32,000 nt of DNA from Candidatus Saccharimonadota bacterium (GTDB lineage: Bacteria; Bacillota_I; Bacilli_A; Mycoplasmatales; Hepatoplasmataceae). This document shows, piece after piece, positions 6,686 to 30,729 of the stretch. Within the stretch, counting starts at the first letter, position 1. Each line of letters opens with the position of its first letter. The notes below the pieces were generated by a model. It did no database searches. It saw only the letters and a list, made by a program, of their open reading frames with translations, and was not told where the DNA came from. The stretch is taken from the NCBI RefSeq assembly GCF_000582535.1, contig NZ_CP006932.1, positions 180,001-212,000 of the forward strand, read 5' to 3'. A program made the position numbers and the translations under genes.

Positions 6686-7552
6686 ATGTTAGGAAGAATT
6701 ATTTATTCAAGCGGTGGAAATTATCGTGTCAAAACTAAGGAAGGAATTTTTAATTGTAAACCAATAGGTTTATTTCGTAAAGATAATACAGAATTAATTG
6801 TTGGAGATAAAGTTGAATTAAAATTAAATTATAAAATAGGACAAGAAAATTTAAATATAATTACAAAATTATATGATCGTAAAAATCAATTTATTAGACC
6901 AAAAATTTCAAATATTGATTTTATAATTATAGTTACATCTCTTGTTGAACCAAAATTTAATCATTTCTATTTAAATAAAATGATCACTTTTTTTCAAATT
7001 AAAAAAATAGAACCAATTTTAATTTTTACTAAAATTGATTTAAATAAAAATCAAAGAAATTTAGATTTAATTAAAAAATACGAAGATTTAAATTATAAAA
7101 TATTTAATTTTAATAATTCTTTTCAAAAAAAAGAAAAAGAAAAAATTTTATTTATTTTAAAAAATAAATTTTCTATTTTAACAGGACAAAGTGGAGTAGG
7201 AAAAAGCACAGTTTTAAATTTTTTAAATAGAAATTTAAAATTAAAAACCGGAGAAATATCTTTTGCTCTTAATAGAGGAAAACATACTACTAGGCATTAT
7301 GAAGCATTTGAAATTTATGAAAATTCTTTAATTGTAGATAGTCCTGGGTTTTCAAGTTTTAAATTAGATTTGAGCTTAAATGAAATTTCCAAGAATTTTA
7401 TAAATTTTGCAAAATACTATAAAAATTGTCAATTTAAAAATTGTCTTCATATTAATGAAAAAGAATGTTTTGTTAAAAAAACAGCTGATTCTTTTTTCTA
7501 TAATGATTATTTAAAATTAATAAAAGAAGTAAAAGAAAATAGAAAATTTTAA
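6686..7552 (+). CDS. rsgA: Ribosome small-subunit-dependent GTPase A (RsgA/YjeQ/YloQ)
   Basis: 288-aa intact ORF with N-terminal OB-like GRIIYSSGGNYRV, circularly permuted GTPase motifs (TKIDL ... GQSGVGKST ... DSPGF) and a C-terminal Cys/His cluster (C.F.NC.H..E..C). Confidence 0.9.
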   Translation: MLGRIIYSSGGNYRVKTKEGIFNCKPIGLFRKDNTELIVGDKVELKLNYKIGQENLNIITKLYDRKNQFIRPKISNIDFIIIVTSLVEPKFNHFYLNKMITFFQIKKIEPILIFTKIDLNKNQRNLDLIKKYEDLNYKIFNFNNSFQKKEKEKILFILKNKFSILTGQSGVGKSTVLNFLNRNLKLKTGEISFALNRGKHTTRHYEAFEIYENSLIVDSPGFSSFKLDLSLNEISKNFINFAKYYKNCQFKNCLHINEKECFVKKTADSFFYNDYLKLIKEVKENRKF

Positions 7553-9399: not shown

Positions 9400-10684
9400 T
9401 ATTAGCGAAATTATCAATAAAAAAGCAAATAAAAAAGAATTAACAGATCAAGAAATTTATTATTTTGTTAATAATTTAAAAAAGGATGTAAAAAAATATC
9501 AAGTATCTTCAATGCTTATGGCAATTAAAATTAATGGTTTAAATGATCGCGAACTTATATCATATCATAATGCAATTGTTAATTCTGGAAATATAATTAA
9601 TTTGGATGATAATAGATTTGATAAACATTCAACAGGAGGATTAGGTGATAAAGTTTCAATTATACTTGCTCCAATTCTTGAAGCAATGGGAATTAAATTT
9701 TGAAAACTTAGTGGAAGAGGACTTGGATTTACAGGAGGAACAGTTGATAAATTAGAATCAATTAAAAAATTTAAAATAAATTATAATTTAGAAACAATTT
9801 TAAAAAAAGATTTTTCAAAACATAATTTTATAATTGGACAATCAAAAAATATTGTTCCTGCTGATAAGTATATTTATTCTATCAGAGATACTTCTGGATC
9901 GGTTGATTCAACAGAATTAATTGCCGCATCTGTAATGAGCAAAAAAATTGCAATGGGAGCAAAAAATATTTTAATTGATTTAAAAGTTGGAAGCGGAGCT
10001 TTTTTCAAAAATTTAAGAGATGCTGAAAAATTAGGTGAAAAATTAAAATTAATTGGGAAAAATAATAATCGAAATATTTATGTATTATATACAAATATGA
10101 ACGAACCTTTAGGAAAATCAATTGGTAATTCAATTGAAATAAAAGAAGCTATAAATTTTTTAAAAAATGAATATAAAGATCCTAAGTTGGAAGAATTATT
10201 AAGAAAAATAGCAAGTGAATTTTATGCAAAAAAATATCAAACTTCGATTACAGAAGGAATTGAAAAATTTAATGAAATTTTAAAAGAACATAAAGGATAT
10301 AAGACTTTTTTAAAAATCTTAGAAAATCAAAATGTTAAAATTAAAGATTTTAAAGATAGCAAAATTTTTACACCAAAACATAACAAAAGAATTACAGCTC
10401 ATCAAAATGGATATTTTAAATTTAAAAATCTTGAAGATTTAGGATATTTTTTAATAGATATAAAAGCAGGAAGAAAAATAGATAAAGATCATATTTATAA
10501 TCATTCTGGTGTTGATTTTTTTGTAAAAAATGGTGATTTTATAAATAAAGGTGATTTACTTGCAAAAATTTATTCAAAAGAAAAATTAACAGATCAGCAA
10601 ATTGAATGATTTAATGAAACTTTTACAATTGTAAAAGAAAAAGTAGAAGATGAAAAAATAATTTTAAAGGAACAAAGATGATAA
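9389..10684 (+). CDS. deoA: Pyrimidine-nucleoside (thymidine) phosphorylase
   Basis: ORFs 9389-9703 and 9935-10609 share a frame and join through TGAs; the end is ...KEQRW then TAA 10682-10684. Motifs: DKHSTGGLGDKVS, SGRGLGFTGGTVDKLE, SIRDTSG, SVMSKK. Confidence 0.9.
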
Positions 10685-11421
10685 AAAAAAGAGAATTCAA
10701 AATTGATAATTATGAAGGACCTTTAGATTTATTATTAGAACTTATTAAAAGCAAAAAGATGCATATTACTGAAATCTCATTAGTGGAGATTGCAGATCAA
10801 TTTGTTCAGATTGTTAATAATTTAGAAATTATTAATTTAGATCTTGTTTCTGAATATTTTTTACTTGCATCTCAACTTTTAGATTATAAAGCAAAATATT
10901 TACTTGCAATTGAAGAAGGAAAAGATTTTGCAAAAAAAATTGAATTATCAGAAGAAGATCTTTTACAAAGGTTAATAATTTATGAAAGTTATAAAAAAGC
11001 AAGCAAGCGAATTTATAATCTTTATAAAAATAATTTTTTCTTTTCAAAAAAAGATGATCAATTAGAAGAATTTTTATTTTCTAATACTGATAAAAGATAT
11101 CAATTAGTAAGCAAAGGTGTAATTGACATCGAAAAAGCAATTGATCGAATTTATAAAATATTAGAAAAAAATAAACAAATTAATACAACATTAACAGTAA
11201 AAAGAATTTCAATTGAAGAGCGTAAAAAAGAATTATTAGAAATTTTAGATTCTAATAAAAAAACTTATAAATTTACACAATTTATAAACAATAATAATTT
11301 TTCAAGATATATAATTGCAGTTACTTTAATTTGTTTTCTTGAGATGGCTGCAAACGATCAATTAATTTTAAAACAAATTAATGATTTTTCAGAAATTTTA
11401 ATTGAAAGAAAAAATCTATAA
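10678..11421 (+). CDS. scpA: Segregation and condensation protein A
   Basis: 247-aa ORF. The N-terminus FKIDNYEGPLDLLLELIKSKKMHITEISL matches ScpA. Confidence 0.9.
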   Translation: MIKKREFKIDNYEGPLDLLLELIKSKKMHITEISLVEIADQFVQIVNNLEIINLDLVSEYFLLASQLLDYKAKYLLAIEEGKDFAKKIELSEEDLLQRLIIYESYKKASKRIYNLYKNNFFFSKKDDQLEEFLFSNTDKRYQLVSKGVIDIEKAIDRIYKILEKNKQINTTLTVKRISIEERKKELLEILDSNKKTYKFTQFINNNNFSRYIIAVTLICFLEMAANDQLILKQINDFSEILIERKNL

Positions 11422-14570: not shown

Positions 14571-15402
14571 TAAATTTAAACTAGAAAAAGGTAAAAAATA
14601 TCTTTTTGCTACTGATTTAGATGGGACTTTTTTAACTTCATATCGAGATTCCATGCATATTGATAATTATGAAGCTGTAAAAATGATAAAAAAGCATAAT
14701 TTTCCTTTTGTAATTGCAACAGGAAGAAGTTGATGATGAGCTAAAAAGATTTATGATCAATTAGGACTCGTAGATGCTTCTATTCACTTTTCAGGGGCAC
14801 AAATTCATAATGTTAATAATAATGCTTTTAAAATTAATTTTAAAAAGAAATTTGAAGAAATTTATACATATATTAAAAAAGAAGAAATTATTGAACTTGT
14901 AAAAGAAAATAATTTAATTACAAAAGTGGATTTTTTTAGTGTTGTTGGAAAAGAACATCAAGCAGAATTTTCAAAAATGGAAGATATTGATAAATTATTT
15001 TTTGATGCTTTTGAGTTTGCTGTTGTTGTAAAAAATAATCCAAGTTATGCACAAAAATTATTATTAGAGCTTAAGAAAAAATATAAAAGTCGTTTTGTAA
15101 TTAAATATTGAAGACATCAAAAAATGCGCGAGATTATTTTTTCACCTCCTGAAACAGATAAATCAATTGCTTTAAAACATGTTTTAAAGCAATATAATTT
15201 AAATGAAAAAAATTTAATTTATTTTGGAGATAATATAAATGATATCGATGCCTTAAAATTAGCTAAAATTAGTTATGTTCCCAAAAATGCAAATGAAAAA
15301 GCAAAAAAAGTAGCAACAGAGATTTTAGAATATACAAATGATGAAGGCGCTGTTGCAAAAAAAATTATTGAATTAATTACAGAACTTGAAAATGGAAAAT
15401 AA
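14551..15402 (+). CDS. Cof-type HAD-IIB family phosphatase
   Basis: ORFs 14551, 14926 and 15124 share a frame. Motif I is FATDLDGT, motif II is ATGRS, and motifs III/IV are FGDNINDIDAL. Three consecutive TGA (WWW) codons lie at 14731-14739. Confidence 0.8.
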
Positions 15403-16159
15403 TTTTAAAAAGATAAATTCAATTACAAATGATAAAATAACTTATTTTTATAAATTAAAAAACAAAAAATATATATTAAAAAATAAATTATTTTTAATTG
15501 AAGGAAAAAATATTATTTCTGAAGCAATCAAAAAAGATTTAGTATCAACAATTTTAATTATTAATCAAAATGACTATTCAGATTTTAAAGGAGAAAAAAT
15601 AATTGTAAATCAAAAAATAATTGATAAATTATCTTTTAATAAAAATAGCAATAATGTGATTGCAATTTGTAAATTGGAAGATAATCTTTTTTTGGATAAT
15701 GATCTTTTGTTTAATAAGATTATTATTTTAGATAAAATTCAAGATCCAAAAAATTTAGGATCAATTGTAAGAACAGCATATGGTCTTGGATTTGAAGCAA
15801 TTTATCTTACAGATCAAACTGTTTTTCCTTATAATCATTATGTAATTTCTAGTTCGCAAGGAGCAATATTTTCACTTCCTATTTTTTATTTAAAGAATTT
15901 TAATTTTCTTAAAAATTATCAAAAATATTTATTTGTAATAGATAAAAAGGCAACGAAATTATCAGAAATAAAAAAATCTGATGAAAAAATAGCTTTAATT
16001 TTTGGAAATGAAGGTAAAGGGATAAGTTCTGATTTTTTTAATATAGATCAAAAAACAATAAAAACTTATATTCCGCTTGTTAATAATTTTGATTCTTTTA
16101 ATGTTTCTATTGCTGCAGCAATCGCTTTATATTATTTTCAAATAATTATTAAAAAATAA
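15392..16159 (+). CDS. TrmH/SpoU-family RNA 2'-O-methyltransferase (RlmB-like)
   Basis: ILDKIQDPKNLGSIVRTAYGLG, FGNEGKGIS and NVSIAAAIALY are SpoU motifs. ATG 15392 is preferred over the TTG 15386 used by the track. Confidence 0.85.
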   Translation: MENNFKKINSITNDKITYFYKLKNKKYILKNKLFLIEGKNIISEAIKKDLVSTILIINQNDYSDFKGEKIIVNQKIIDKLSFNKNSNNVIAICKLEDNLFLDNDLLFNKIIILDKIQDPKNLGSIVRTAYGLGFEAIYLTDQTVFPYNHYVISSSQGAIFSLPIFYLKNFNFLKNYQKYLFVIDKKATKLSEIKKSDEKIALIFGNEGKGISSDFFNIDQKTIKTYIPLVNNFDSFNVSIAAAIALYYFQIIIKK

Positions 16160-17615: not shown

Positions 17616-19648
17616 TGAAAATTTTATTAAATGAATTAAAAAAATTTATAGATTTAGATAAAATAACAATCGATAAGTTAATTGAGAGTTTAAATTCATT
17701 ATCTTATGAAGTTGAATATTATCAAAGAATCCATAATCTTAAAAGCAAATCATTTATAAAATTAGCAAAAGTTATTAGTTGTAAAAAACACCCTAATGCT
17801 GATAAATTATCTCTTTGTAAACTTGAGACAAATAATAAAGAATATCAAGTGGTTTGTGGGGCAAAAAATATTAGAGAAGGACAAACAGTCATTCATGCTC
17901 TTCCGGGATCAATTATTAATGATCATAAATTAGAGGTTAAAAAAATTCGTAATGTTTTATCATATGGAATGGTTCTTTCAATTGAAGAACTTTTAAATTT
18001 AGATAAAAATATTATTGATGATCAAGAAAAAAATAATATTCTAGTTTTAGATAATCGAATTTCACTTAAAAATAATGTTTTTGATCTTTTAAAAATTGAT
18101 GATTATTTAATTGAAATATCTATTTTACCTGATCGAATTTATGCTAATTCTTATCAATTTCTTGCAAAGGAATTAGCTGCTTTTTTAGATTTAAAATTAT
18201 TAGATCAAGAAGAAAAAAATATTAAATTTAATCCAGAAATTAATTTAGATTTAAAGGAAAAAGATTTAATTTTAACAAATAAAGCAGTTTCGTTAGCAAC
18301 AGCAAATGCTATATTAAACTCAAATAATAAAGTTAAAACTCCTTTTGAAATTAAGTTATTGCTTTATTTAAATAATATAAAACCTAAAAATAATATATTA
18401 GATTTAATATATTATTTTCGCTTAATTTATGGATTATCAATTTATGAAGTAGAGAAAAATCAAAAATATCAATTTGATGGGCAGATTATTAATAATAAAA
18501 TAGATATTTTTAATAAATATTTTAAAGAAAATAAAATAGATGAAACAAAAAATATCTCTTTTGTTGCGATTTCTAGTACAAAAAAAGAAAATGTTCTTGG
18601 GATTGATGATGATAAATTGGATTTTATGGCAAGACAAAATATAAAAGGAACAGAATTTAGTCAAGTTAATTTACTTAAAAATTTTTTGTATTATGGAAAA
18701 AAATTTGATTATTTAAAATCATATACAGATATTATTATTAAAAATAAAATAATAAATGATTTTACAAATGAAATAAAAACGATTAAATTAGAAGAGGAAT
18801 TTTTAGAAAATTATATTGGTGAAAAAATTAATCTTTATGATGTTTTAGAAAAATTAAAAATTATTGGTTTTAATTATATAAAAGAAAAGGAATTATGAAA
18901 AATTCCTAATTATCGTTTTAATCTTGATCATAAACAAGATATGATTGAAGAGATAATACGATATTATAAAATTGAAAATATCCAATCAAAAAAATATCCA
19001 ATTACAAAAGAATTTATAAAAATTGAAAATAATAAATATTTCATTGAAAAGGTTTCAGAATTATTAATTTCTTATGGATTTAACGAGGCAAAAAATTATT
19101 CTTTTGTAAATAATAATGAATTTAATGAATATAATTTATGAGATATTAAAAAACCAATATTTTTAAATCAAAAATATAATTTGAAAAATAATATTTTGCG
19201 TAATTCTTTACTTAAAGGATTACTTAATAGTCATAATTTAAACTATAAAAATAACTTTGAAGATATTCGGTTATTCGAATTTGCAAATATTTATTTTTCT
19301 GATCAAGAAGATGATTTTAAACTGACTTTAGGATTGATTTTTGATGATAAAATTACCTATAAATTAGATCAGAATATTGAGAATCAAGAATATTCTCCAT
19401 TATTAGTGGGAAATAAAATAATAAAAGATATTCTAAATATTCTCGGATTAAAAACTGAAAAATATCTTACTTATAAAGAAATAAAAACAAAGGAAGATAT
19501 TTTTAACAAAGCACAAGCTGTTGAAGTTTATTATAATAATAAGTTAATTGCCTATTTTGGGGAACTAAGTCCAAAAATTCTTAGAGCTAAAAAATATATA
19601 AGAATAGATAAAATTAAAGCTCATTTATATTATTTAGAGATGATTTAG
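17615..19648 (+). CDS. pheT: Phenylalanine--tRNA ligase beta subunit
   Basis: GTG 17615 overlaps the pheS TAG by 1 nt. ORFs 17615, 18941 and 19181 share a frame through TGAs. An N-terminal tRNA-binding domain is present (HPNADKLSLCKLE...VCGAKNIREGQ). Confidence 0.9.
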
Positions 19649-19681
19649 TAAAGATAATTTAGGAATTTATATAAGTTTTTT

Positions 19682-19715
19682 CTCTTACCTTTTAATTTTT
19701 TTTGTAAGAGTTTTT
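19682..19715 (+). terminator. Possible intrinsic terminator after pheT
   Basis: CTCTTAC 19682-19688 pairs with GTAAGAG 19704-19710 (7 bp, long 15-nt loop), followed by T5. Confidence 0.4.
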
Positions 19716-19736
19716 AACTTTTTTAGGATGGTAAAA

Positions 19737-21281
19737 ATGAAAATTAAAATAAAAAAATTCTTTGATGATGTAGAATGAACATTTTTTTTAATAATTCTTT
19801 TTTCGTTATTAATTCCGTTTGTTTATAAATTTGTTCGTTATTTTTGATTATCAAAACAATCTATCGATGATTTTTCTAATCTTTTAGGAATACTTTCAAC
19901 TATTAATTTAGTTTTTGAAACAGCTACAATCTTTTTAATTGTTCCTGTTTACGCTTTTGTAAATAAAAATATTAAAAATAGTTTTCAACAAAAAGAAAAA
20001 TTTTTAATCTCTTTTATAATTGTCATAATTGGACTTATTTTTATTAATTTAATTATGGCCGTCTGTTCATATCCTTATGTAATTTATGTATTAGATTCAA
20101 ATGGAAATACAAATTTACTTGCATTTACATTTATGATGAGTTCAATTGGTTTTTCTTTTTTGCTGATTGATCATTTATTTATTGCTTTTTTAGTTTTAAA
20201 ACGAGATAAAGTAAGTTCTTTTTTCCTTACAATAATTGGAATATTTTTTCTTTTTTTATGTGATTTTTTCTTAATTTCAGGAATTTTTATTGAAAATCCT
20301 AGTTATATTATATTTTCAATTTCTTTCTTATTAGGACCTTTACTTTACTTTATTTTAATTTTTGTTTGAATTTTTTTCAGAGAGTATCAAGAGTGAAAAA
20401 AAGCAATCAAAAATTTTAGTTTTAAAAGATGAAAAAAAGACTTAAAAATATATAAAAAAACAAGTTTTTTTATTGGAATTGAAGCTTTAATTTGAAATCT
20501 TCTTTGATTTCTTGGTGTTTCGATGCCTCTCTATATGAGTGTAGATCAGCCTTATATTGAAACGGCTTTTATATTAAGCGATGCAATGTTTTGAACAATT
20601 CTTATTGTTCCACTTACTGCTTTTACATATTTGCAAGCAGAAAGACATTCTCGGGCTCTCAATTCAGAAGAACATAATTTTGTTCTTTTCAATGGATTTA
20701 TTTTTGTTTTTATGATTGGAGTTAGCTGATTAATACTTGCCCCAATTGTAATATTTTTAATTTATCCTCATTATATTAATTTTGATACAACTTATGTGTT
20801 TTTAAATATTGGTGATTTTGCAAGTAGATCTGATTTGATTAATGTTAATTCTAGGGGTGATTTATCCACAATATTACAAACAAATTATTATGATATTTCT
20901 TATCATTATATAAAATCATTTTGTTTAATTATGCTTCCTTTTTTCTTTTTAATGCTAATTATTAGAGTTATTTATACTTATTGAGTTTCTGTTGGTAATA
21001 GTTTTAAGGCTCTTTTAGGAACAATAATTGGTGCTGGAGTGATTTGAATTCCTTCTACAATTATTTTTAATACATTTGCACTTATGAATATAAATTTTTC
21101 TCCTTATTTTATTATGATTACTTATGGATTAGGTATTTTAATGATGGCGATTACTTATTCTTATCAACTTAATTTAGAAAATAAAGAAAATACTGTTTAT
21201 TGAAGATGGTATTTAAGATTATTAACAATTGATTATATCAACAGTGAAATTGAGAATGAATTGTTAATTAATAACATATAA
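19737..21281 (+). CDS. Polytopic integral membrane protein, possibly a second MATE/MOP-like transporter
   Basis: ATG 19737 has AGGA 8 nt upstream; an alternative in-frame ATG lies at 19728. ORFs 20055 and 20796 and all gaps share one frame and join through many TGA codons, ending at TAA 21279-21281. The product is about 514 aa, with 12 or more hydrophobic segments in two halves separated by a basic loop. Confidence 0.45.
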
Positions 21282-22626: not shown

Positions 22627-23919
<1,293 letters not shown>

Positions 23920-23963: not shown

Positions 23964-24827
23964 ATGAAAGTAGAAAAGAAACCACTTATTGGTGCTCATA
24001 TCTCCTTTAAAAAAGAAGATCAATTATTAGGTTCAATTCGTGATTTATTAAGAATAAATGCAACTTCAGGGGCTTTTTATATTTCAAATTCTCGTGCATA
24101 TAAGAAAACATTATTATTAGATCAAGAAAAACTAAAAGAAGCAAAAAAATTAGCAAAAGCAAATAATTTTAATATTGAAAATATTATTGTTCATTCCCCT
24201 TTGGTTGGTAATATTGCAAATATTGAAAAAGATCAGATAACATTTAATCTTACAAAGCAGTCTTATTTAAGTGATTTAAAATTAATGGAGAAAATGGGCT
24301 TGAAATTATTTAATTTTCATCCAGGTTCAGCAAAGGATAAAAAACTAGGAATCTTAAAATGTGCTGAAGGAATTAATTATTTAATTGAAAATACAAAAGA
24401 TGATCATACAATTATTTGCATTGAAACAATGATGAAAAAAGGAAATTACATCGGTGCTAATTTTTCAGAAATAAGCGAAATAATTACAAATATAAAAGAT
24501 AAAGAAAGAATCGGTGTAGTAATTGACACTTGTCATATATGAGATGGAGGTTATGATTTAAATAATTTTAATAAAGTTCTTGATGAATTTGATCAAAAAA
24601 TAGGTCTTAAATATTTAAAAGGATTACATATCAATGATTCCAAAAATCCCCTAGGTTCAAATAAAGATCGTCATCAAAACATCGGAAAAGGATATATAGG
24701 ATTAAGCAATCTAAAAAAAATTATTTTTCATCCAAAAATAATTAATCTTCCAAAAGCACTAGAAACTCCTTATGGAAAAGATGATTTCAAAAGATGAAAA
24801 GAAGAAATTGATCTTTTATTAAATTAA
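23964..24827 (+). CDS. nfo: Endonuclease IV (AP endonuclease)
   Basis: ORF 23964-24542 continues through TGAs to TAA 24825-24827. [39 protein letters not shown] and DRHQNIG are Nfo metal-site motifs. Confidence 0.92.
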
Positions 24828-24863
24828 AAATTTATAAAAGATTTTAAGAAGGAAGTGAATATT

Positions 24864-25886
24864 ATGAATGCAGAAAACAATAATTTAGAATTAAATAAGA
24901 ATGAAGATATTTATAACGAAGAGCTGCTTTTTCAAACAGTAGAAAAATACTTTGGTGTAGACAAACTTTATTCTTATAATTTAAGTTTTTTAATTGGAAA
25001 TGATTTTTTTAAATTAGTAGAAGGATATGATTATGAAGATTTTTATCAAAAATTAAAAAAAACAAAAGCTTATAAAAGAAAAAAAACAACAATTAAAAAT
25101 TTAGATAAATTATCAAAAAAAATTGGAGCAGAGTTTGATATTAATCTTACAGAAGGATTATTGCAATTAAATAAAAAAAAGAAATATTTTGATTTTGATA
25201 ATAAAAGAGCAAATATAAGAGAACTTTATAATCCCTTTTTAAAAATTATCAATAATTATTTAGAAAATAGTTTTCAAAATGAAGTTAATATTTTAACAAT
25301 AGATTTTAGTAATTTTTTTGAAAATTTATTTACTCCAAGTCGGTTTTTATTAAAAAAATATAATTTTAATAAAAAAGAGCAAGATGAGCTTATTAAAAAA
25401 ATTAATCTTTATAAAATATTTGGTGATATTGAAGATCCAAAAGAAATCAAATTACCGAAGGAATTTAAGAAAAATTATTTGCCTTTTTTTGCTTTTGATC
25501 AATTAAGAATATTTACAAATAAAATAAATGAAAAAAATTCTGTCCTTGTTGTATTTGGTTATGATTTTTCGGATCAATATTTAAATAATTTACTTCTAGA
25601 TTTAAAGGATAATAAATCAATAAAAATATTATTACTTGTTGATCAAAAAAATAAAGAACAAGAGATAATATATCAATTTTTACAATTTCAAAATACTTTT
25701 TTATTTAAATTTATTGATTATACAAAAAGTGATTATTTGAATAATTTAGAAGAAATCTTATATTCAAAAATTTCTTTTTTAAGAAGCAAAAAAGATATCA
25801 GTAATTTAGTAGAAAAAGAGCAAAAAAAGACAAAAACAAATAGAAAAAATTCAACAAAAAAAGGGAAAAACAAGAAAAATGAATAA
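24864..25886 (+). CDS. Hypothetical protein with SIR2_2-like (defence-type SIR2) motif layout, predicted catalytically degenerate
   Basis: Intact ORF. ATG 24864 lies 8 nt after AAGGAAG; the track uses GTG 24855. The motif order recalls SIR2-like proteins: FLIGNDF (24987-25007), NILTIDFSNFFENLF (from 25287), LYKIFGDIEDP (from 25407) and VLVVFGYDFSDQYLNNLL (from 25545). The C-terminus is a basic tail. The protein has no His, Cys or Trp. Confidence 0.5.
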   Translation: MNAENNNLELNKNEDIYNEELLFQTVEKYFGVDKLYSYNLSFLIGNDFFKLVEGYDYEDFYQKLKKTKAYKRKKTTIKNLDKLSKKIGAEFDINLTEGLLQLNKKKKYFDFDNKRANIRELYNPFLKIINNYLENSFQNEVNILTIDFSNFFENLFTPSRFLLKKYNFNKKEQDELIKKINLYKIFGDIEDPKEIKLPKEFKKNYLPFFAFDQLRIFTNKINEKNSVLVVFGYDFSDQYLNNLLLDLKDNKSIKILLLVDQKNKEQEIIYQFLQFQNTFLFKFIDYTKSDYLNNLEEILYSKISFLRSKKDISNLVEKEQKKTKTNRKNSTKKGKNKKNE

Positions 25887-27780
25887 TTTAGATAATTACT
25901 TTTTTGGTGTAATTAGTTTTACAAAAGGAAATGAAGTTATTGTTAAAAGCAAAAAAGAGAAAATTTTGGAAAGAGATTATATAATTGGATCTGATCAACT
26001 TTTTTTTGCACCAAAAATAGATCGTTTTATTAAATTATTATTTAATAATCAAATATTTATTTATAAGATTTTTCAAAGATCGGAAGAGCAAAATAATTAT
26101 TTATATCATGGATATTATATTGGAAGAATTTTAAATAATCAACTTATTAAAAATGAAACTTTTATTCCTTCTTTAAATCAAAAAGTTTCATTAATTTCAA
26201 TAAAAGAATTAAAAATATTTGATCAAGATTTCTCTGATAATAATTTAAAAATAAAAAATATTGCAAAGACTTTAGATACAAAAAACCAAATTGATTTAAA
26301 TTTAAATTTCTTTTCCTTTAATAATTTATTAATAGGTAAAAAAGATTCTGGTAAAAGTAACACAATAAAAAATTTTTACTTAAGTTTATTTAATCAATAC
26401 TTAAAAAATTTTAATCAAACTTTCCATAAATTTGTTTTTTTTGATCTTAAAAATCAATATTTTAATTTTTTCAAAAATAACTTAAATTCTTTTTTATTAG
26501 GACAATTAAAAGAAATTAATTTAAAAGAAAAATTATTAGAAAAAGACAGTCCATTTTTTAATTTTAAAAAATTAGGAAGAAAAGAAAAAGCTTTTCTTTT
26601 TGATATTACAAATAAAGAAGAGAGATATTTGCTTGATAATTTCTTTCTATGAATTGAAGATGTAAAACAAATCTCTTTTATAAACATTATAAATAAAGCA
26701 ATATTAAAGCAAGATGGTTTTGTAATTATTAAAAATTTTCTTTTAAACTTAGTAAAAATTTCTATCAAAGATCAAAATCTTAAATTTAATCATTATTTAA
26801 TTATTTTGAAAGAAATTTTGGATAAATTAAGTTTAATTAATGATAATTTTTATTTAAATGATATTTACAATCAATATTATGATTTAATTGAAAAAGAAAA
26901 TCAACAAAAAATTATTTTTGAAAAAAAAGGAAATAATTTAATTTTTGAAAAAGAATATTTTTCAACTTTTTTAGATTTAATAAGAGAAAAATATTTAAAT
27001 GGTGATAGCAATATTATTGAAAAATTTAATAATTTTATTGCTTCAGACTGAAATTCATTACTTAATTTATTTCAATTACAAAATATAATTGATAATAATT
27101 ACCAAAAAATTATTTTTGAAAATTTTATAAATAAATTAAATTTGAAAAAGGATAATGAAAATTATTTAATTGTAAAACAATTTGCTTTATCTTTAAAAAA
27201 TGGTGAAAAAAGAAATAGTATTTTAGATTTATTAGAAAAAAATAATTTAATTATTTTTACTTTTGATAATCTTTCTTCTAAAATTGAGCAAAGATTAATT
27301 TATCTTTTTATTAAGCTTTTAACTTTTGATAATTGCTTAGATTTACCAGAAGAAAAAAAATATTTAAATATTGTATTAGATGATTTTGATAAATGATTTA
27401 AATTATCACTTATTGATAAAAGTTTAGATTTAGATTTACTTGAGAAATTAATTTCTCAACAAGAGCAATATAAAACTTTTTTTACAATTTCTGTTGAAAA
27501 TGTAAATCTTTTACGAGAAAAAATGTTCATTGATTTTGATAATTTTTTAATTCATAATCTTTTAGATCAAGAAGAATTTGAATTAACTACCCATTATCTA
27601 AAAAAAATAAATGAACATCAAATTTATCAAACTTTTAATTTTGAAGATACAGAATTATTACTTTATGGAAAATCATTTAAAAGAGTCTATCCTGTAAAAT
27701 TAATTAATTATAATGATAAAAAAATAATTACAAATCAATCAGAAAAAGTTATATTTAATATCTTGAATCAAAAAAGTTAA
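25879..27780 (+). CDS. HerA/DUF87-like P-loop ATPase (633 aa)
   Basis: Four track ORFs (25879, 26806, 27142, 27523) share one frame and join through three TGA codons. The start overlaps the upstream stop by 8 nt (ATGAATAA). The N-terminus is barrel-like (GVISFTKGNEVIV...). Walker A is GKKDSGKS at 26335-26358, preceded by NLLI. A Walker-B-like NIVLDDFD lies at 27367-27390. Confidence 0.55.
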
Positions 27781-27819: not shown

Positions 27820-27854
27820 AGAAAATGAAACATAAAGTATCATTTTCTTTTTTT
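27820..27854 (+). terminator. Intrinsic terminator after the nfo / SIR2-like / HerA-like unit
   Basis: AGAAAATGA (27820-27828), an 11-nt loop, TCATTTTCT (27840-27848), then T6 (27849-27854). Confidence 0.7.
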
Positions 27855-27879
27855 ATTAAAAGTAAGGGATTAATTTATA

Positions 27880-29634
27880 GTGAAAAAAAAATTTAGAAAT
27901 ATATTTTTATCATCATTATTTTTATTTTCGGGACAAGCAATAATTTATCTCCAAATATCAAATAATCAAAAAAATCAACAATATAATTTAGAAGATAGTA
28001 ATAAAACAAATGTTATTACTGATCAAAATATTAAAAAAGGATATCAATTTGATGAAGGAGAAGCTGCAGCAGTTACAACAGATCAGAACGGATATGATCA
28101 TTTGTATATGTGAGGAGATAATAGTAATTACCAATTAGGACTTCCTTATATAAATTCATATTCAAAATCTGATAATATTCAAAATGAAAATATAAATAAG
28201 AGAAATTATTATTATATCCCTACAGAAGTAAATTATATTAAAGAGCAAAAAGGAAGAATAGAAGACTTAAAATCAACAAAATACAATACAATTTTAACTT
28301 TTGTTGATCAAGAACAAAATTACCATCTTTATATTTATGGCTCAAATATTAATGGTTTACTTACTAAGCAAGATTTATCTTTAAATAGTAAAAATAGTCC
28401 AATTATTATTGATATTCCAAGTAATTTAAAAATTGCAGATATTGAACTTACAGATGATAATGCTTATCTTTTACTTGATGAAAAAACAGGTGATAAACAA
28501 TATTTATATAGTTGAGGTAAAAATGATTATGGACAATTGGGATTAGGATATAGTGACAATAAAATTCATAAAAATCCCACTGTTTCTAAATATATAAATG
28601 GTAAAACAAATGAGAATCTTTATGTAAATTCAATTTATGCAGAAAATGATGCTTTATATTTATTAGTACAAAATAGTAATGAAAATGAATATCAAACAAT
28701 TTATAGTTTGGGTTCAAATAAAAATGGACAATTAGGTTTAAATTCTTCAAATTATGATGGTAAAAATCCTGTTCCAACTGAAATACCTTTTTTTGCAAGG
28801 GAAAAAGCACAGGAAATAATTTTTATTGATGGTAATAATCATCAAGGAATGTATACAGAATTTATAGAAAATGATCAAACTTATCTTGTCGGATGAGGAA
28901 ATAATAATAGAAAACAATTAATAAATATTGATGATAAAAATATAGATCAACCAACAGCAATATTTGATCAAGAACAAAATTTTATAATAGGAGATAAAGG
29001 CGATCCGCTTTTTGATTCAAATACAAATCAATTGCTTTTATCTGATTTTGGATATGAACAATCTTATTTAATTCTAGAAGAAGGAACATTAATAGATGAA
29101 AAATTTAATGTTGAAAGAATTGTAATTGAAGGATGAGGTTTAAATGCTCATAATAGTTTGGGTGGAAATAATGTCGGTCAAATTAATGAACCAATAGAAA
29201 TAAACAGTTTTTTAATTGAAAATTATAATGGATATCAAATTAAAAATATTTCTACAGGAAGTCATAGTACTGATATTTTAATTGAAAACAATCAACAAAA
29301 TCAAAATTTATATACTTGAGGATATAATCAAACTGGACAATTAGGAAATGGAGAAGAAGCAACTTTTGCATCACCTACTACTTCAAATCTTTTCTTATCT
29401 ATGCAAACTTCAAAAGAAGTAATTAGTAATAATATTGCATATCAATTATCTCTTGCAATTTTTATTGTAATTATAATTATTTTAATATTGGTACTTATTA
29501 GCTTATATTTAAGTATTAGAAGATATCGTAAAGTATCTTGATCAGTGCAAACTCAAAAAAACGAAGATGAATTAAAAGAACAAGAATTAGTAAAAGAATT
29601 AACAACACAAAATTTAGATTTAAACTTAGATTAA
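27880..29634 (+). CDS. Membrane-anchored RCC1-repeat (seven-bladed beta-propeller) protein
   Basis: GTG 27880. ORFs 27880 and 28537 and the gaps share a frame and join through TGAs, ending at TAA 29632-29634 (584 aa). Seven RCC1-type signatures: WGDNSNYQLG (28111), YGSNINGLL (28336), WGKNDYGQLG (28513), LGSNKNGQLG (28708), WGNNNRKQL (28894), WGLNAHNSLG (29134), WGYNQTGQLG (29317). The N-terminus is hydrophobic (no Cys). A C-terminal TM segment at 29434-29516 is followed by RRYRK. Confidence 0.75.
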
Positions 29635-30729
29635 ATTTTTAAATGTTAAATTTTTATTTTTATTTTTAATTATTTTTATTTTTTCTTGATCATTTTGATT
29701 ATATAAAAGATAAATTTTTCCTTTTAAATCTTCGGATCGATTAGTTCTTCCGATTCTATGTTTAAAATAATTTAAATCAACTGGAAGATCATAATTTATA
29801 ATGTGACTAACATTATTAAAATCTAATCCTCTTGCATACAAATCAGTTGTTACTAAGTAAATTATTTTCTGATTTCTTACTTCTGTAAAAATTTGCTTTC
29901 TTTTTCTAATGTTTAGATCAGCAGAAAAATATCTTATATCTTTAAAATTATTTGAAATTAAATAATCATAAATCTTTTTTACTTCTTTGCTTTTATTTGC
30001 AAAGATAATTACAAAAAAAGGATTAAATTGATTGCTTTTTAATAAATTAATTAAAGTTTCTAGTCGATCATTATTTAAGATTTTTATTAAATTAATATTA
30101 ATCTTTTTTTCTAATTTACTATTTAAATTAATTACTTTTGCTTTAATTTTAAAAAGTTTTTCAATTTTATTCTGCAAATTTTTTTCTAATGTTGCAGAGA
30201 AAAAAGAAAAAGAAACATTATTTTTAATTTTTAAAATATCAACAAATTTTTTAATTTGTTCTAATTGTTTAAAATTATCAATCATATCTACTTCATCAAC
30301 AACAATATATTTTAGTTTTTTATAGCTAATTGGTGATTTTTTTTGTAAACTAGAAATTTTATCAATTGTTGAAATTATTATTTTTGCTTCTTTATTATAT
30401 TTATTTTTTTCTATATCATAATCAAGATTTTTTGTAATTGCAAAATAAGAAAAATTAAGATATTTATTAATTTTTAATAATTGATTTTTCAATTGATGAA
30501 TTAATTCATTAGTTGGAACAAGAATAATTGCCTCTACTCCCTTTTTATCCATTTCTATTTGATTTAGAATTGGTAAAAGATAAGCAAGCGTTTTTCCTGT
30601 CCCAGTAGGAGATTGACAAAAAAGATTATTTTTAACTTCAAGAATTGAAAATACATCTTTTTGTACTTCCAATAAATTATTAAATTTTTCTGATTCTAAA
30701 TATTTGTTTAGATTTATTTTTATCTTCAT
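29626..30729 (-). CDS. DEAD-box family ATP-dependent RNA helicase (motif II is DEVD)
   Basis: 367-aa intact ORF with no TGA. Motifs: Q motif (LLEVQ), I SPTGTGKT, Ia LVPTNEL, II VDEVD, III SAT, V ARGLD, VI HRIGRTNR. Confidence 0.88.
   Translation of the reverse strand: MKIKINLNKYLESEKFNNLLEVQKDVFSILEVKNNLFCQSPTGTGKTLAYLLPILNQIEMDKKGVEAIILVPTNELIHQLKNQLLKINKYLNFSYFAITKNLDYDIEKNKYNKEAKIIISTIDKISSLQKKSPISYKKLKYIVVDEVDMIDNFKQLEQIKKFVDILKIKNNVSFSFFSATLEKNLQNKIEKLFKIKAKVINLNSKLEKKININLIKILNNDRLETLINLLKSNQFNPFFVIIFANKSKEVKKIYDYLISNNFKDIRYFSADLNIRKRKQIFTEVRNQKIIYLVTTDLYARGLDFNNVSHIINYDLPVDLNYFKHRIGRTNRSEDLKGKIYLLYNQNDQEKIKIIKNKNKNLTFKNLI

What the first reader, a model, noticed from the sequence alone, without database searches (positions are those of the whole stretch)
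24864..27780. Translationally coupled SIR2-like / HerA-like gene pair behind nfo: a Nezha-type (SIR2-HerA) antiphage module in a genome-reduced Mollicute?
Seen in sequence: two intact ORFs of about 340 aa and 633 aa (the second only after reading three TGA as Trp). They overlap by 8 nt (ATGAATAA). They follow nfo after 36 nt with no hairpin in between, and are closed by a clean terminator at 27820-27854. ORF1 shows the motif order I associate with SIR2_2/ThsA-type defence SIR2 domains. ORF2 has a HerA-like layout: an N-terminal barrel-like segment, a hydrophobic strand plus Walker A (NLLIGKKDSGKSNT), and a distal hhhhDD Walker-B-like strand. Established knowledge: SIR2 + HerA two-gene operons of roughly these sizes are a described antiphage system that forms a supramolecular NADase/ATPase complex. 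Inference: this is a highly diverged member of that architecture. Defence systems are rare in minimal, very AT-rich Mollicute genomes, and this one appears co-transcribed with a DNA-repair gene. That raises a second possibility, that the pair has been domesticated for a DNA-maintenance role. Archaeal HerA works with nucleases in end resection.
Basis: partly seen in the sequence, partly recalled or inferred. Interest (0 to 1): 0.85.

Follow-up and report, generated by a model that had tools for sequence, protein, structure and literature searches.

The report
Catalytically degenerate SIR2–HerA gene pair
Two overlapping genes behind nfo in the isopod-gut symbiont Candidatus Hepatoplasma crinochetorum descend from a SIR2–HerA antiphage system, but they have lost the residues needed to destroy NAD+ and to hydrolyse ATP while still being kept by selection, so they probably no longer work as that system does.

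Summary
With genetic code 4, the window (Ca. Hepatoplasma crinochetorum Av) has intact ORFs of 340 aa (24864-25886) and 633 aa (25879-27780, three TGA=Trp). They overlap by ATGAATAA, start 36 nt after nfo and end at a hairpin plus T-run.

The homology call is also right. ORF1 passes Pfam SIR2_2 (32.2 bits, cutoff 24.5). ORF2 has no direct family hit, but profile searches link it over its full length to HerA proteins that sit directly behind SIR2 genes (hhalign 99.9%, E 1.8e-33).

The functional reading is not supported.
- **ORF1:** every NAD+-site signature is replaced (GAGFS→GNDFF, TTNYD→TIDFS, KLHGS→KIFGD), and no ortholog contains a single histidine.
- **ORF2:** the P-loop is kept, but Walker-B DE→DD, SQRP→VENV and EGRK→QQEQ.

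The pair is nevertheless intact, syntenic and under purifying selection like its neighbours: dN/dS is 0.13-0.29, against 0.14-0.19 for nfo. This holds in H. crinochetorum and H. scabrum. H. vulgare lacks the pair at nfo and carries only a solitary, equally degenerate HerA-like gene elsewhere.

Best reading: a retained, NADase-dead derivative of SIR2–HerA with an unknown role that does not depend on NAD+ and probably involves DNA. I class it as a new variant of a known kind, of moderate interest. Both structure models failed, so there is no fold evidence.

The parts
23964..24827 (+). nfo (endonuclease IV, AP_endonuc_2). It is the gene directly upstream and may be co-transcribed with the pair.
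   Evidence: ORF. The ortholog in L002 carries PF01261. It is 81% identical to the H. scabrum protein.
24810..24843 (+). AT-only palindrome or weak hairpin straddling the nfo stop codon.
   Evidence: -7.4 kcal/mol, z 0.02. Analogous palindromes occur at the same place in L002 and L010. Its function is unknown.
24864..25886 (+). ORF1: SIR2-like protein of 340 aa, with no histidine and a Lys-rich C-terminal tail.
   Evidence: Pfam SIR2_2 32.2 bits against a cutoff of 24.5. PADLOC SIR2 PDLC04080 E 1.9e-7. Alignment to canonical HerA-partner SIR2 proteins. dN/dS 0.13-0.24.
24996..25010 (+). Degenerate NAD+-binding loop: G45-N-D-F-F49 in place of GAGFS.
   Evidence: MAFFT alignment. Invariant in all 4 orthologs.
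25296..25310 (+). Degenerate catalytic motif: T145-I-D-F-S149 in place of TTNYD, so the catalytic Asn and Asp are lost.
   Evidence: Invariant in orthologs. Catalytic roles come from PMC11472057 and PMC11514289.
25413..25427 (+). Degenerate catalytic motif: K184-I-F-G-D188 in place of KLHGS, so the catalytic His is Phe186.
   Evidence: There are zero His residues in all four orthologs.
25764..25883 (+). Lys/Arg-rich C-terminal tail of ORF1 (15 K+R in the last 40 residues). It is absent from canonical SIR2 partners.
25879..25886 (+). ATGAATAA overlap of the ORF1 stop and the ORF2 start (translational coupling).
   Evidence: Conserved in L002 and L010.
25879..27780 (+). ORF2: HerA-like P-loop protein of 633 aa, with three TGA=Trp codons.
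   Evidence: Profile search reaches canonical HerA at E 1e-6 to 3e-4. Those proteins hit PADLOC HerA PDLC04097 at up to 7e-189. hhalign 99.9%, E 1.8e-33, 546 columns. dN/dS 0.16-0.29.
26335..26358 (+). Walker A P-loop, G153-K-K-D-S-G-K-S160, intact.
   Evidence: G153, G158 and K159 are invariant even in the distant Mollicute relatives.
26443..26445 (+). Asp189 (Walker-A Lys +30, in FFDLKNQY). It aligns to the invariant Asp of the canonical IDFNGEY motif.
   Evidence: By spacing it corresponds to HerA D218 (with K188 as Walker-A Lys), the nickase determinant of type III Sir2-HerA (PMC13434337). This mapping is an inference from spacing, not a direct alignment to the E. coli protein.
27370..27384 (+). 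Walker B strand I498-V-L-D-D502. The Asp is kept and the catalytic Glu is replaced by Asp.
   Evidence: Invariant in orthologs.
27496..27501 (+). E540-N541 in place of the Gln-Arg of the canonical SQRP motif (sensor Gln and putative Arg finger).
   Evidence: The roles of these residues come from general knowledge of FtsK-HerA ATPases.
27820..27855 (+). Terminator-like hairpin (27820-27848) plus T-run that closes the pair.
   Evidence: Conserved in position, with compensating stem changes, in L002 and L010.

Best explanation
ORF1 and ORF2 are real, translationally coupled genes. They descend from a SIR2-HerA (Nezha-type) two-gene module that became fixed on the chromosome of the H. crinochetorum/H. 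scabrum lineage.

Shown:
- Both are homologous to the two subunits of that system.
- The SIR2-like subunit has lost every signature residue of the NAD+ site.
- The HerA-like subunit keeps its P-loop but has lost the Walker-B Glu and the Gln/Arg of the SQRP motif.
- Both genes are nevertheless under purifying selection.

Inferred:
- The pair no longer kills by NAD+ depletion.
- The SIR2-like protein now acts as a non-catalytic structural or regulatory cap on a HerA-like ring.
- That ring binds nucleotide but hydrolyses it poorly or not at all.
- The complex engages DNA through three features: the HerA channel, the retained Asp189 (the position of the nickase determinant in type III systems), and the Lys-rich segments gained by the SIR2-like subunit.

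Whether this serves a stripped-down, NAD+-independent immunity or a DNA-maintenance job alongside Nfo cannot be decided here. I rate the two roles about equally likely.
For: Homology:
- Pfam SIR2_2 above its gathering score.
- ORF1 and the canonical HerA-partner SIR2 proteins share the same best PADLOC SIR2 model.
- The exhaustive profile search links ORF2 to canonical HerA.
- hhalign gives 99.9%, E 1.8e-33, over the full length.
- Canonical relatives P0013 and P0016 sit directly behind SIR2_2 genes.

Loss of catalytic residues:
- The SIR2 and HerA substitutions are seen in alignments.
- ORF1 orthologs have 0 His.
- The substituted positions are invariant among orthologs.
- Their roles are documented in PMC11472057 and PMC11514289.
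- AT bias alone does not explain the losses. Neighbouring nfo keeps its many His and Gly residues, and the ORF2 P-loop keeps G, G, K and S.

Retention:
- Intact ORFs, the same 8-nt overlap and the same neighbours occur in H. scabrum and strain Ps.
- dN/dS is 0.13-0.24 for ORF1 and 0.16-0.29 for ORF2. Neighbours give nfo 0.14-0.19, purB 0.10-0.18 and the DEAD helicase 0.20-0.28.

SIR2-independent persistence of the HerA-like gene:
- Solitary copies with the same Walker-B loss occur in H. vulgare and two other low-GC, TGA-reading (Mollicute-type) contigs.
Against: - There is no structural evidence. Both AlphaFold models were unusable (pLDDT 35.5), so complex formation and the fold are inferred from sequence only.
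- Asp can sometimes partly replace the Walker-B Glu. An invariant Arg546 and Lys548 lie a few residues after the lost SQRP motif and might supply a finger, so some ATPase activity cannot be excluded.
- dS is near saturation (0.6-1.0), so dN/dS values are useful only relative to neighbours.
- The grouping of Mollicute HerA-like proteins could be inflated by shared AT-driven amino-acid composition.
- No expression data were available.
- The proposed DNA-directed activity has no direct support beyond retained and gained residues.
Confidence: 0.6

Rival explanations
1. It is a functional Nezha-type abortive-infection system. On phage infection, the SIR2 subunit in a supramolecular complex with the HerA ATPase depletes NAD+.
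For: The gene order, sizes and overlap match canonical SIR2-HerA loci. Both proteins are homologous to the system's subunits. Walker A is intact. Hepatoplasmataceae keep other defences, CRISPR-Cas9 and restriction-modification (PMC10928387).
Against: All the named catalytic and NAD+-contact residues of SIR2 are replaced, and the protein has no histidine. In published systems, mutating the catalytic His abolishes NADase (PMC11514289). Catalytically dead mutants of either protein lose defence (PMC11472057 introduction). The HerA Walker-B Glu and SQRP Gln/Arg are lost. ORF2 hits no PADLOC HerA model, and ORF1 matches only through its C-terminal part.
Confidence: 0.05
2. It is a defence system that has changed effector. 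The dead SIR2-like protein survives only as the lock that holds a HerA-borne DNA nickase in check until a phage cue arrives. This would resemble the nickase arm of type III Sir2-HerA without the NADase arm.
For: In type III systems, Sir2 assembly represses an intrinsic HerA nickase, and HerA D218 is required for it (PMC13434337). The equivalent Asp189 (Walker-A Lys +30) is invariant in ORF2 orthologs. The P-loop is retained. Over long distances ORF2 diverges much faster than its neighbours: about 23% identity to the H. vulgare HerA-like protein, against 64-70% for purB and nfo. That pattern is typical of conflict genes.
Against: In type III systems both arms are needed for protection. The D218 mapping rests on spacing and on an invariant column, not on a direct alignment. 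The H. vulgare copy has Asn at that position. The locus is fixed and syntenic rather than island-like.
Confidence: 0.25
3. It is a domesticated DNA-maintenance factor. The pair is co-expressed with endonuclease IV and helps process or protect damaged DNA, by analogy with archaeal HerA working with nucleases.
For: The nfo-ORF1-ORF2 order, with a 35-44 nt gap and one shared downstream terminator, is conserved in three genomes. Constraint is at housekeeping level. The self-killing NADase chemistry is lost. ORF1 has gained Lys-rich segments. The genome is only 0.65 Mb and has lost many genes (PMC10928387).
Against: Co-transcription is untested, and a weak palindrome lies between nfo and ORF1. In H. 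vulgare, nfo has no such partners, and its HerA-like gene sits between a peptidase gene and ppa. ATP hydrolysis, which HerA motors need for translocation, looks impaired. No nuclease partner such as NurA is present.
Confidence: 0.25
4. It is a decaying relic: an inactivated defence operon drifting towards pseudogenes, with no remaining function.
For: Catalytic residues are lost in both proteins. This stretch has the lowest GC in the window, 0.155-0.183. No direct family hit exists for ORF2. The solitary HerA-like gene in the H. vulgare lineage evolves faster than its neighbours, with dN/dS 0.57 against 0.25-0.34.
Against: Full-length intact ORFs occur in at least five Hepatoplasma assemblies. 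dN/dS of 0.13-0.29 equals that of housekeeping neighbours at dS 0.6-1.0. The start/stop overlap and the terminator are conserved. The substituted motif positions are themselves invariant.
Confidence: 0.05

Closest known systems
SIR2-HerA / Nezha antiphage system (Paenibacillus sp. 453MF, E. coli, S. aureus; PMC11472057, PMC11514289)
   Same: Both have a two-gene operon with SIR2 upstream of HerA, with overlapping or abutting ORFs. ORF1 falls in the SIR2_2 family, with the same best PADLOC SIR2 model as canonical partners. ORF2 is homologous to HerA over its full length, covering the N-terminal barrel, the P-loop domain and the C-terminal region. Sizes are similar: 340 and 633 aa here, against about 390 and about 615 aa.
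   Different: ORF1 lacks the GAG loop and the catalytic Asn, Asp and His. It also lacks about 100 residues of the cap and insertion regions, and it has gained Lys-rich segments. ORF2 lacks the Walker-B Glu, the SQRP Gln/Arg and the EGRK motif. The locus is fixed and syntenic in a reduced symbiont genome rather than sitting in a variable island. Neither complex formation nor defence has been tested.
Type III Sir2-HerA with a HerA nickase (E. coli; PMC13434337)
   Same: The HerA Asp at Walker-A Lys +30 (D218 there, D189 here) is retained. In that system Sir2 acts as a repressor of a HerA activity, which gives a non-catalytic role that a dead SIR2 could still fill.
   Different: Type III still needs an active NADase and ATPase. 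Here both look disabled. The residue mapping rests on spacing and on an invariant column only.
Archaeal and bacterial HerA-NurA DNA end-resection machinery
   Same: Both use a HerA-family P-loop ring protein encoded next to a partner that caps the ring. Here the pair also sits next to a DNA-repair gene (nfo).
   Different: The partner here is SIR2-like, not a NurA nuclease. ORF2 is closest to defence-type HerA (PADLOC PDLC04097 relatives), not to repair HerA. Its ATPase motifs are degenerate.
Solitary HerA-like genes of other Hepatoplasmataceae (H. vulgare AP027131.1, L004 8001-9914; L003; L001)
   Same: These are the closest non-orthologous relatives, at 20-25% identity. They keep the P-loop and have lost the Walker-B Glu in the same way (DA, DS or DD). 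They also come from low-GC genomes that read TGA as Trp.
   Different: They have no SIR2-like neighbour and no detectable remnant of one. They lie in different genomic contexts (peptidase M42 / ppa; proS). They are under weaker constraint (dN/dS 0.57).

Membership tests
SIR2-HerA (Nezha) antiphage system | Two adjacent, co-oriented genes with SIR2 upstream of HerA | tested here: met
   ORF1 is 24864-25886 and ORF2 is 25879-27780, with an 8-nt overlap. Canonical loci L005, L006 and L009 have the same arrangement.
SIR2-HerA (Nezha) antiphage system | Subunit 1 carries a SIR2_2-type domain | tested here: met
   PF13289 scores 32.2 bits against a cutoff of 24.5, E 1.3e-7. PADLOC PDLC04080 gives E 1.9e-7 over the C-terminal part only. 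hhalign to canonical partners gives 93%, E 3.4e-7.
SIR2-HerA (Nezha) antiphage system | SIR2 NAD+-binding GAG loop and catalytic Asn/Asp/His (N163, D165, H212; N226, H287) | tested here: not met
   GAGFS→GNDFF, TTNYD→TIDFS and KLHGS→KIFGD. There is no His in any ortholog.
SIR2-HerA (Nezha) antiphage system | Subunit 2 is a HerA/FtsK-type ATPase (barrel plus RecA-like core) | tested here: met
   There is no direct Pfam, NCBIfam or PADLOC HerA hit. However, the profile search reaches DUF87/PDLC04097 HerA proteins, and hhalign gives 99.9%, E 1.8e-33, over residues 7-613.
SIR2-HerA (Nezha) antiphage system | HerA Walker A GxxxxGK[ST] | tested here: met
   G153-KKDS-G158-K159-S160, aligned to the canonical GNTGSGKS.
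SIR2-HerA (Nezha) antiphage system | HerA Walker-B Asp-Glu and the sensor Gln / Arg finger (hhhhDE; SQRP) | tested here: not met
   IVLDD (D501-D502) replaces IIxDE, and VENV replaces SQRP. Arg546 nearby is a possible but unproven substitute.
SIR2-HerA (Nezha) antiphage system | Recognised by defence-system HMMs (PADLOC SIR2 and HerA models) | tested here: not met
   ORF2 has no HerA model hit, only mad8 at E 0.0029. ORF1 has partial hits of at most 28.5 bits. Canonical proteins score 190-630 bits.
SIR2-HerA (Nezha) antiphage system | SIR2 ring stacked on a HerA hexamer (supramolecular complex) | not testable with these tools
   Monomer AlphaFold models were unusable (pLDDT 35.5), and no multimer prediction was available.
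SIR2-HerA (Nezha) antiphage system | Phage protection with NAD+ depletion | not testable with these tools
   This needs an experiment.
SIR2-HerA (Nezha) antiphage system | Patchy, island-like distribution typical of defence systems | tested here: inconclusive
   The pair is fixed and syntenic in H. crinochetorum Av and Ps and in H. scabrum. By protein identity it is also present in Tokyo2021. It is absent behind nfo in H. vulgare. No viral or metagenome relatives were found. Too few genomes are available.
HerA-NurA end-resection pair | NurA nuclease partner next to HerA | tested here: not met
   The partner is SIR2-like. None of the neighbouring ORFs in the window looks like NurA.

The most novel reading that the evidence does not exclude
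A SIR2-HerA immune module has been enzymatically silenced and exapted into the stable core of a minimal symbiont genome. It would be expressed with endonuclease IV as an NAD+-independent complex that binds ATP and handles DNA. That would make it a clear case of a bacterial defence system turned into a housekeeping factor, with a pseudo-sirtuin as a structural subunit.
Probability: 0.2. Interest if true: 0.7.

Novelty: new variant of a known kind. Interest (0 to 1): 0.5.

Why it matters
All characterised SIR2-HerA systems need an active NADase, and most models place NAD+ depletion at the centre of their action. This pair has lost that chemistry in both subunits, yet selection has kept it for a long time in a 0.65-Mb genome.

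- **A natural separation-of-function variant.** It could show what the SIR2-HerA scaffold does besides destroying NAD+, for example gating a HerA nickase, binding DNA or sensing.
- **The fate of suicidal immune modules.** It bears on what happens to such modules in small, host-restricted bacterial populations.
- **A warning for annotation.** Domain-level calls ("SIR2 family protein", "Helicase HerA") or hits from defence-finding tools would overstate the function here.
- **Not previously described.** The Hepatoplasmataceae genome paper lists only restriction-modification and CRISPR-Cas9 as defences and does not mention this pair (PMC10928387).

Tried and rejected
- **Structure prediction.** Both ORFs were modelled with their ortholog alignments (4-5 sequences). 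Both gave pLDDT 35.5 and pTM about 0.26. I therefore ran no fold search, because the matches would be meaningless.
- **PDB sequence search.** ORF2 gave only a chance-level MCM8 fragment (E 0.12). ORF1 gave a weak, partial match to a "SIR2-like domain-containing protein" (8w9l) at E 0.61.
- **Direct family scans of ORF2.** Pfam and NCBIfam gave nothing meaningful (NCBIfam only a chance-level transaminase match, E 0.05), and PADLOC gave only mad8 at E 0.0029.
- **Word-indexed homolog search.** Run with the widened alignment A3, it did not return the distant Mollicute relatives. Their contexts came from the look-up of encoding contigs instead.
- **Metagenome and viral scans.** The metagenome scan with the SIR2-like alignment and the viral scan with the HerA-like alignment both found no relatives.
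- **Promoter scan.** It is uninformative at 20% GC: 36 sites found against 44 expected.
- **Terminator scan.** Its consensus rule misses AT-rich hairpins.
- **SIR2 remnants.** A search next to the solitary HerA-like genes and at the H. vulgare nfo locus found none. This used tblastn and hmmsearch --max on six-frame translations.
- **tRNA and Rfam scans of the window.** Nothing found.
- **AT bias as the cause of the motif losses.** I considered and rejected this. nfo next door keeps its His and Gly residues, the ORF2 P-loop is intact, and the substituted residues are invariant among orthologs.
Full report
**What is in the sequence**

The window has 15-27% GC and reads TGA as Trp. Its 633-aa protein is 100% identical to X271_00204 of Candidatus Hepatoplasma crinochetorum Av, an extracellular gut-gland symbiont of the woodlouse Armadillidium vulgare with a 657-kb genome (PMC10928387).

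Translation with code 4 confirms the ORFs.
- nfo lies at 23964-24827.
- ORF1 lies at 24864-25886 (340 aa), 36 nt after nfo.
- ORF2 lies at 25879-27780 (633 aa), with three in-frame TGA codons that align to Trp or Phe in orthologs.
- The two ORFs overlap by ATGAATAA.

After ORF2, positions 27820-27848 fold into a hairpin followed by seven U. This is not significant on its own (z -0.83) and is missed by the G-C-demanding scan. But H. scabrum and strain Ps have a hairpin plus T-run at the same place, with different and compensating stems. I accept it as a terminator.

An AT-only palindrome (24810-24843) straddles the nfo stop codon, and the other two genomes have equivalents. It is weak and has no clear T-run, so co-transcription with nfo stays plausible but unproven.

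**ORF1 is SIR2-like but has lost the active site**

ORF1 passes the Pfam SIR2_2 gathering score (32.2 against 24.5 bits, E 1.3e-7). It gives partial hits to PADLOC SIR2 models, the best being PDLC04080. PDLC04080 is also the best model (E about 1e-57) for two canonical SIR2 proteins that I recovered next to canonical HerA genes.

A MAFFT alignment to those proteins keeps the framework but replaces the functional residues.

| Canonical motif | ORF1 | Change |
|---|---|---|
| NFLIGAGFS | SFLIGNDFF | GAG loop becomes GND |
| NIFTTNYDPxLE | NILTIDFSNFFE | TTNYD becomes TIDFS |
| NLYKLHGS | NLYKIFGD | His becomes Phe |
| GFSFxDEH | GYDFSDQY | DEH becomes DQY |

The published catalytic residues are N163, D165 and H212 in Paenibacillus SIR2 (PMC11472057) and N226 and H287 in S. 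aureus Sir2. There the H287 mutation abolishes NADase, and the Thr before the Asn and a Ser of the glycine-rich loop region contact the ligand (PMC11514289). In ORF1 these positions are Asp147, Ser149, Phe186, Ile146 and Phe.

Independently of any alignment, none of the four ORF1 orthologs contains a histidine. The substituted residues are invariant among orthologs.

ORF1 also lacks about 100 residues of the cap and insertion regions. It has gained a Lys-rich internal stretch and a Lys-rich C-terminal tail.

**ORF2 is HerA-like with only the P-loop left**

ORF2 has no meaningful direct Pfam, NCBIfam or PADLOC match. An exhaustive profile search of 1.84 billion representatives with the ortholog alignment found only 11 proteins.
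- Six are canonical HerA proteins. They match Pfam DUF87 at up to 2e-22 and PADLOC HerA PDLC04097 at up to 7e-189. Two of them sit immediately behind SIR2_2 genes.
- Three are very diverged proteins from low-GC, TGA-reading contigs.

Profile-profile comparison of the Mollicute set with the canonical set gives 99.9% probability, E 1.8e-33, over 546 columns. It spans residues 7-613, so it covers the N-terminal barrel region as well as the ATPase core.

| Feature | Canonical HerA | ORF2 |
|---|---|---|
| Walker A | GNTGSGKS | GKKDSGKS (intact) |
| Walker B | IIxDEAHN | IVLDDFDK (catalytic Glu lost) |
| EGRK motif | EGRK | QQEQ |
| SQRP motif | SQRP | VENV |
| HNFFIHR motif | HNFFIHR | DNFLIHN |

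The three distant Mollicute relatives have lost the Glu as well, reading DD, DA or DS. An invariant Arg546 a few residues downstream could in principle act as a finger. I therefore call ATP hydrolysis "probably impaired", not "excluded".

Asp189, 30 residues after the Walker-A Lys, aligns to an invariant Asp of canonical HerA. By spacing it matches D218 (with K188 as the Walker-A Lys), the nickase determinant of type III Sir2-HerA (PMC13434337). That mapping is an inference.

**Evolutionary context**

H. scabrum Ps-JP and H. crinochetorum Ps have the same order: purB-purA-nfo-SIR2-like-HerA-like-RCC1-like-DEAD(-)-rsmD-coaD. They also share the 8-nt overlap.

Nei-Gojobori estimates among the three genomes (dS is 0.6-1.0, near saturation, so only relative values are meaningful):

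| Gene | dN/dS |
|---|---|
| ORF1 | 0.13-0.24 |
| ORF2 | 0.16-0.29 |
| nfo | 0.14-0.19 |
| purB | 0.10-0.18 |
| DEAD helicase | 0.20-0.28 |
| pheT | 0.24-0.33 |
| RCC1-like | 0.34-0.52 |

So the pair is constrained like its housekeeping neighbours and is not decaying.

The pair is not universal, however. In H. vulgare Av-JP, nfo sits between a large 895-aa ORF and genes for membrane or secreted proteins, with no such pair. That genome instead carries a solitary HerA-like gene, about 23% identical, between a peptidase M42 gene and ppa. The same arrangement occurs in a related contig, and a third solitary copy lies upstream of a gene whose product looks like prolyl-tRNA synthetase (my reading).

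No SIR2 remnant is detectable at any of these loci. The solitary copies evolve faster than their neighbours (dN/dS 0.57 against 0.25-0.34).

The Mollicute HerA-like proteins group together in a simple distance tree, but shared composition could contribute to that. No relatives were found in viral or JGI metagenome contigs.

**How it most likely works**

Shown:
- The pair descends from a SIR2-HerA module.
- The NAD+ site and the ATP-hydrolysis residues are lost.
- The P-loop and Asp189 are retained.
- The pair is under purifying selection at a fixed locus.

Inferred:
- The pair no longer acts by NAD+ depletion.
- The SIR2-like protein serves as a non-catalytic cap or regulator of a nucleotide-binding HerA-like ring that engages DNA.

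Two roles remain open, and I rate them about equally likely. The first is a stripped-down immunity in which a dead SIR2 gates a HerA activity, as Sir2 represses the HerA nickase in type III systems. The second is a DNA-maintenance role coupled to Nfo.

I rate an active Nezha-type NADase system at about 0.05. Published work shows that the lost His is essential and that dead mutants of either subunit lose defence. I also rate a functionless relic at about 0.05, because of the constraint data.

**Comparison with what is known, and novelty**

The pair works like, and descends from, SIR2-HerA. It fails two defining tests for membership as a functional system: the SIR2 catalytic residues and the HerA Walker-B and finger residues. 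It also fails the defence-HMM thresholds.

Database annotations already call the proteins "SIR2 family protein" and "Helicase HerA", so the bare homology is not new. I found no paper mentioning SIR2 or HerA in Mollicutes. The Hepatoplasmataceae genome paper lists only restriction-modification and CRISPR-Cas9 as defences.

The new points are the double catalytic degeneration combined with strong retention, and the family of solitary degenerate HerA-like genes in related symbionts. I class this as a new variant of a known kind.

**Limits**

- There is no usable structure model, so no fold search was run.
- Few genomes are available.
- dS is saturated.
- There are no expression or biochemical data.
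- The functional proposals are therefore inferences from retained and lost residues and from context.

Noticed in passing
window 22636-23918: purA (adenylosuccinate synthetase) is intact but contains no ATG codon at all, so the whole roughly 427-aa protein has no Met. At the position where strain Ps has its ATG start (MNSLAIIG...), strain Av has TTA (…T-L-NSLAIIG). An ATT lies 9 nt upstream. The gene must therefore use a non-ATG start codon.
   Followed up: partly
window 27880-29634: The RCC1/RLD-repeat gene after the terminator most likely starts at GTG 27880, not at the first ATG at 28108. That start gives an N-terminal signal-like segment matching the 563-580-aa orthologs, and there is a hydrophobic C-terminal anchor. 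It is the fastest-evolving gene in the neighbourhood (dN/dS 0.34-0.52). A paralog lies a few kb downstream in H. scabrum (L002, from 17530).
   Followed up: partly
L012 14892-15807 (H. vulgare AP027131.1): Besides an intact nfo (9998-10852) and purB (19564-20847), H. vulgare carries fragments of the purB N-terminus joined to a copy of nfo residues 85-287 (69% identity). Together they form an open 219-aa ORF (15151-15810). This is a rearrangement scar, or a fusion gene, from the purB-purA-nfo region.
   Followed up: partly
window 24810-24843; L002 about 6936-6970; L010 about 10848-10880: An AT-only palindrome uses the last codons of nfo (…LLLN*) as its 5' arm. It is present in all three genomes, although the 3' arm sequence differs between them. 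It could be a weak attenuator or a binding site, or it could be a coincidence of AT-rich sequence.
   Followed up: partly
L004 8001-9914 (H. vulgare); L003 8001-10016; L001 342-2216: These are solitary, highly diverged HerA-like genes (20-25% identical to ORF2). They have an intact P-loop but have lost the Walker-B Glu, and they have no SIR2 neighbour. The L003 and L004 loci are syntenic with each other (peptidase M42 upstream, ppa downstream on the opposite strand).
   Followed up: yes
window 29626-29634: The RCC1-like gene (+) and the DEAD-box helicase gene (-, 29626-30729) converge and overlap by 9 nt at their 3' ends. A 4-nt convergent overlap occurs in H. scabrum and in strain Ps.
   Followed up: no
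window 26376-26687 (- strand): A 103-aa antisense ORF lies inside ORF2. It is probably a by-product of low-GC sequence with few stop codons, and I did not examine it further.
   Followed up: no
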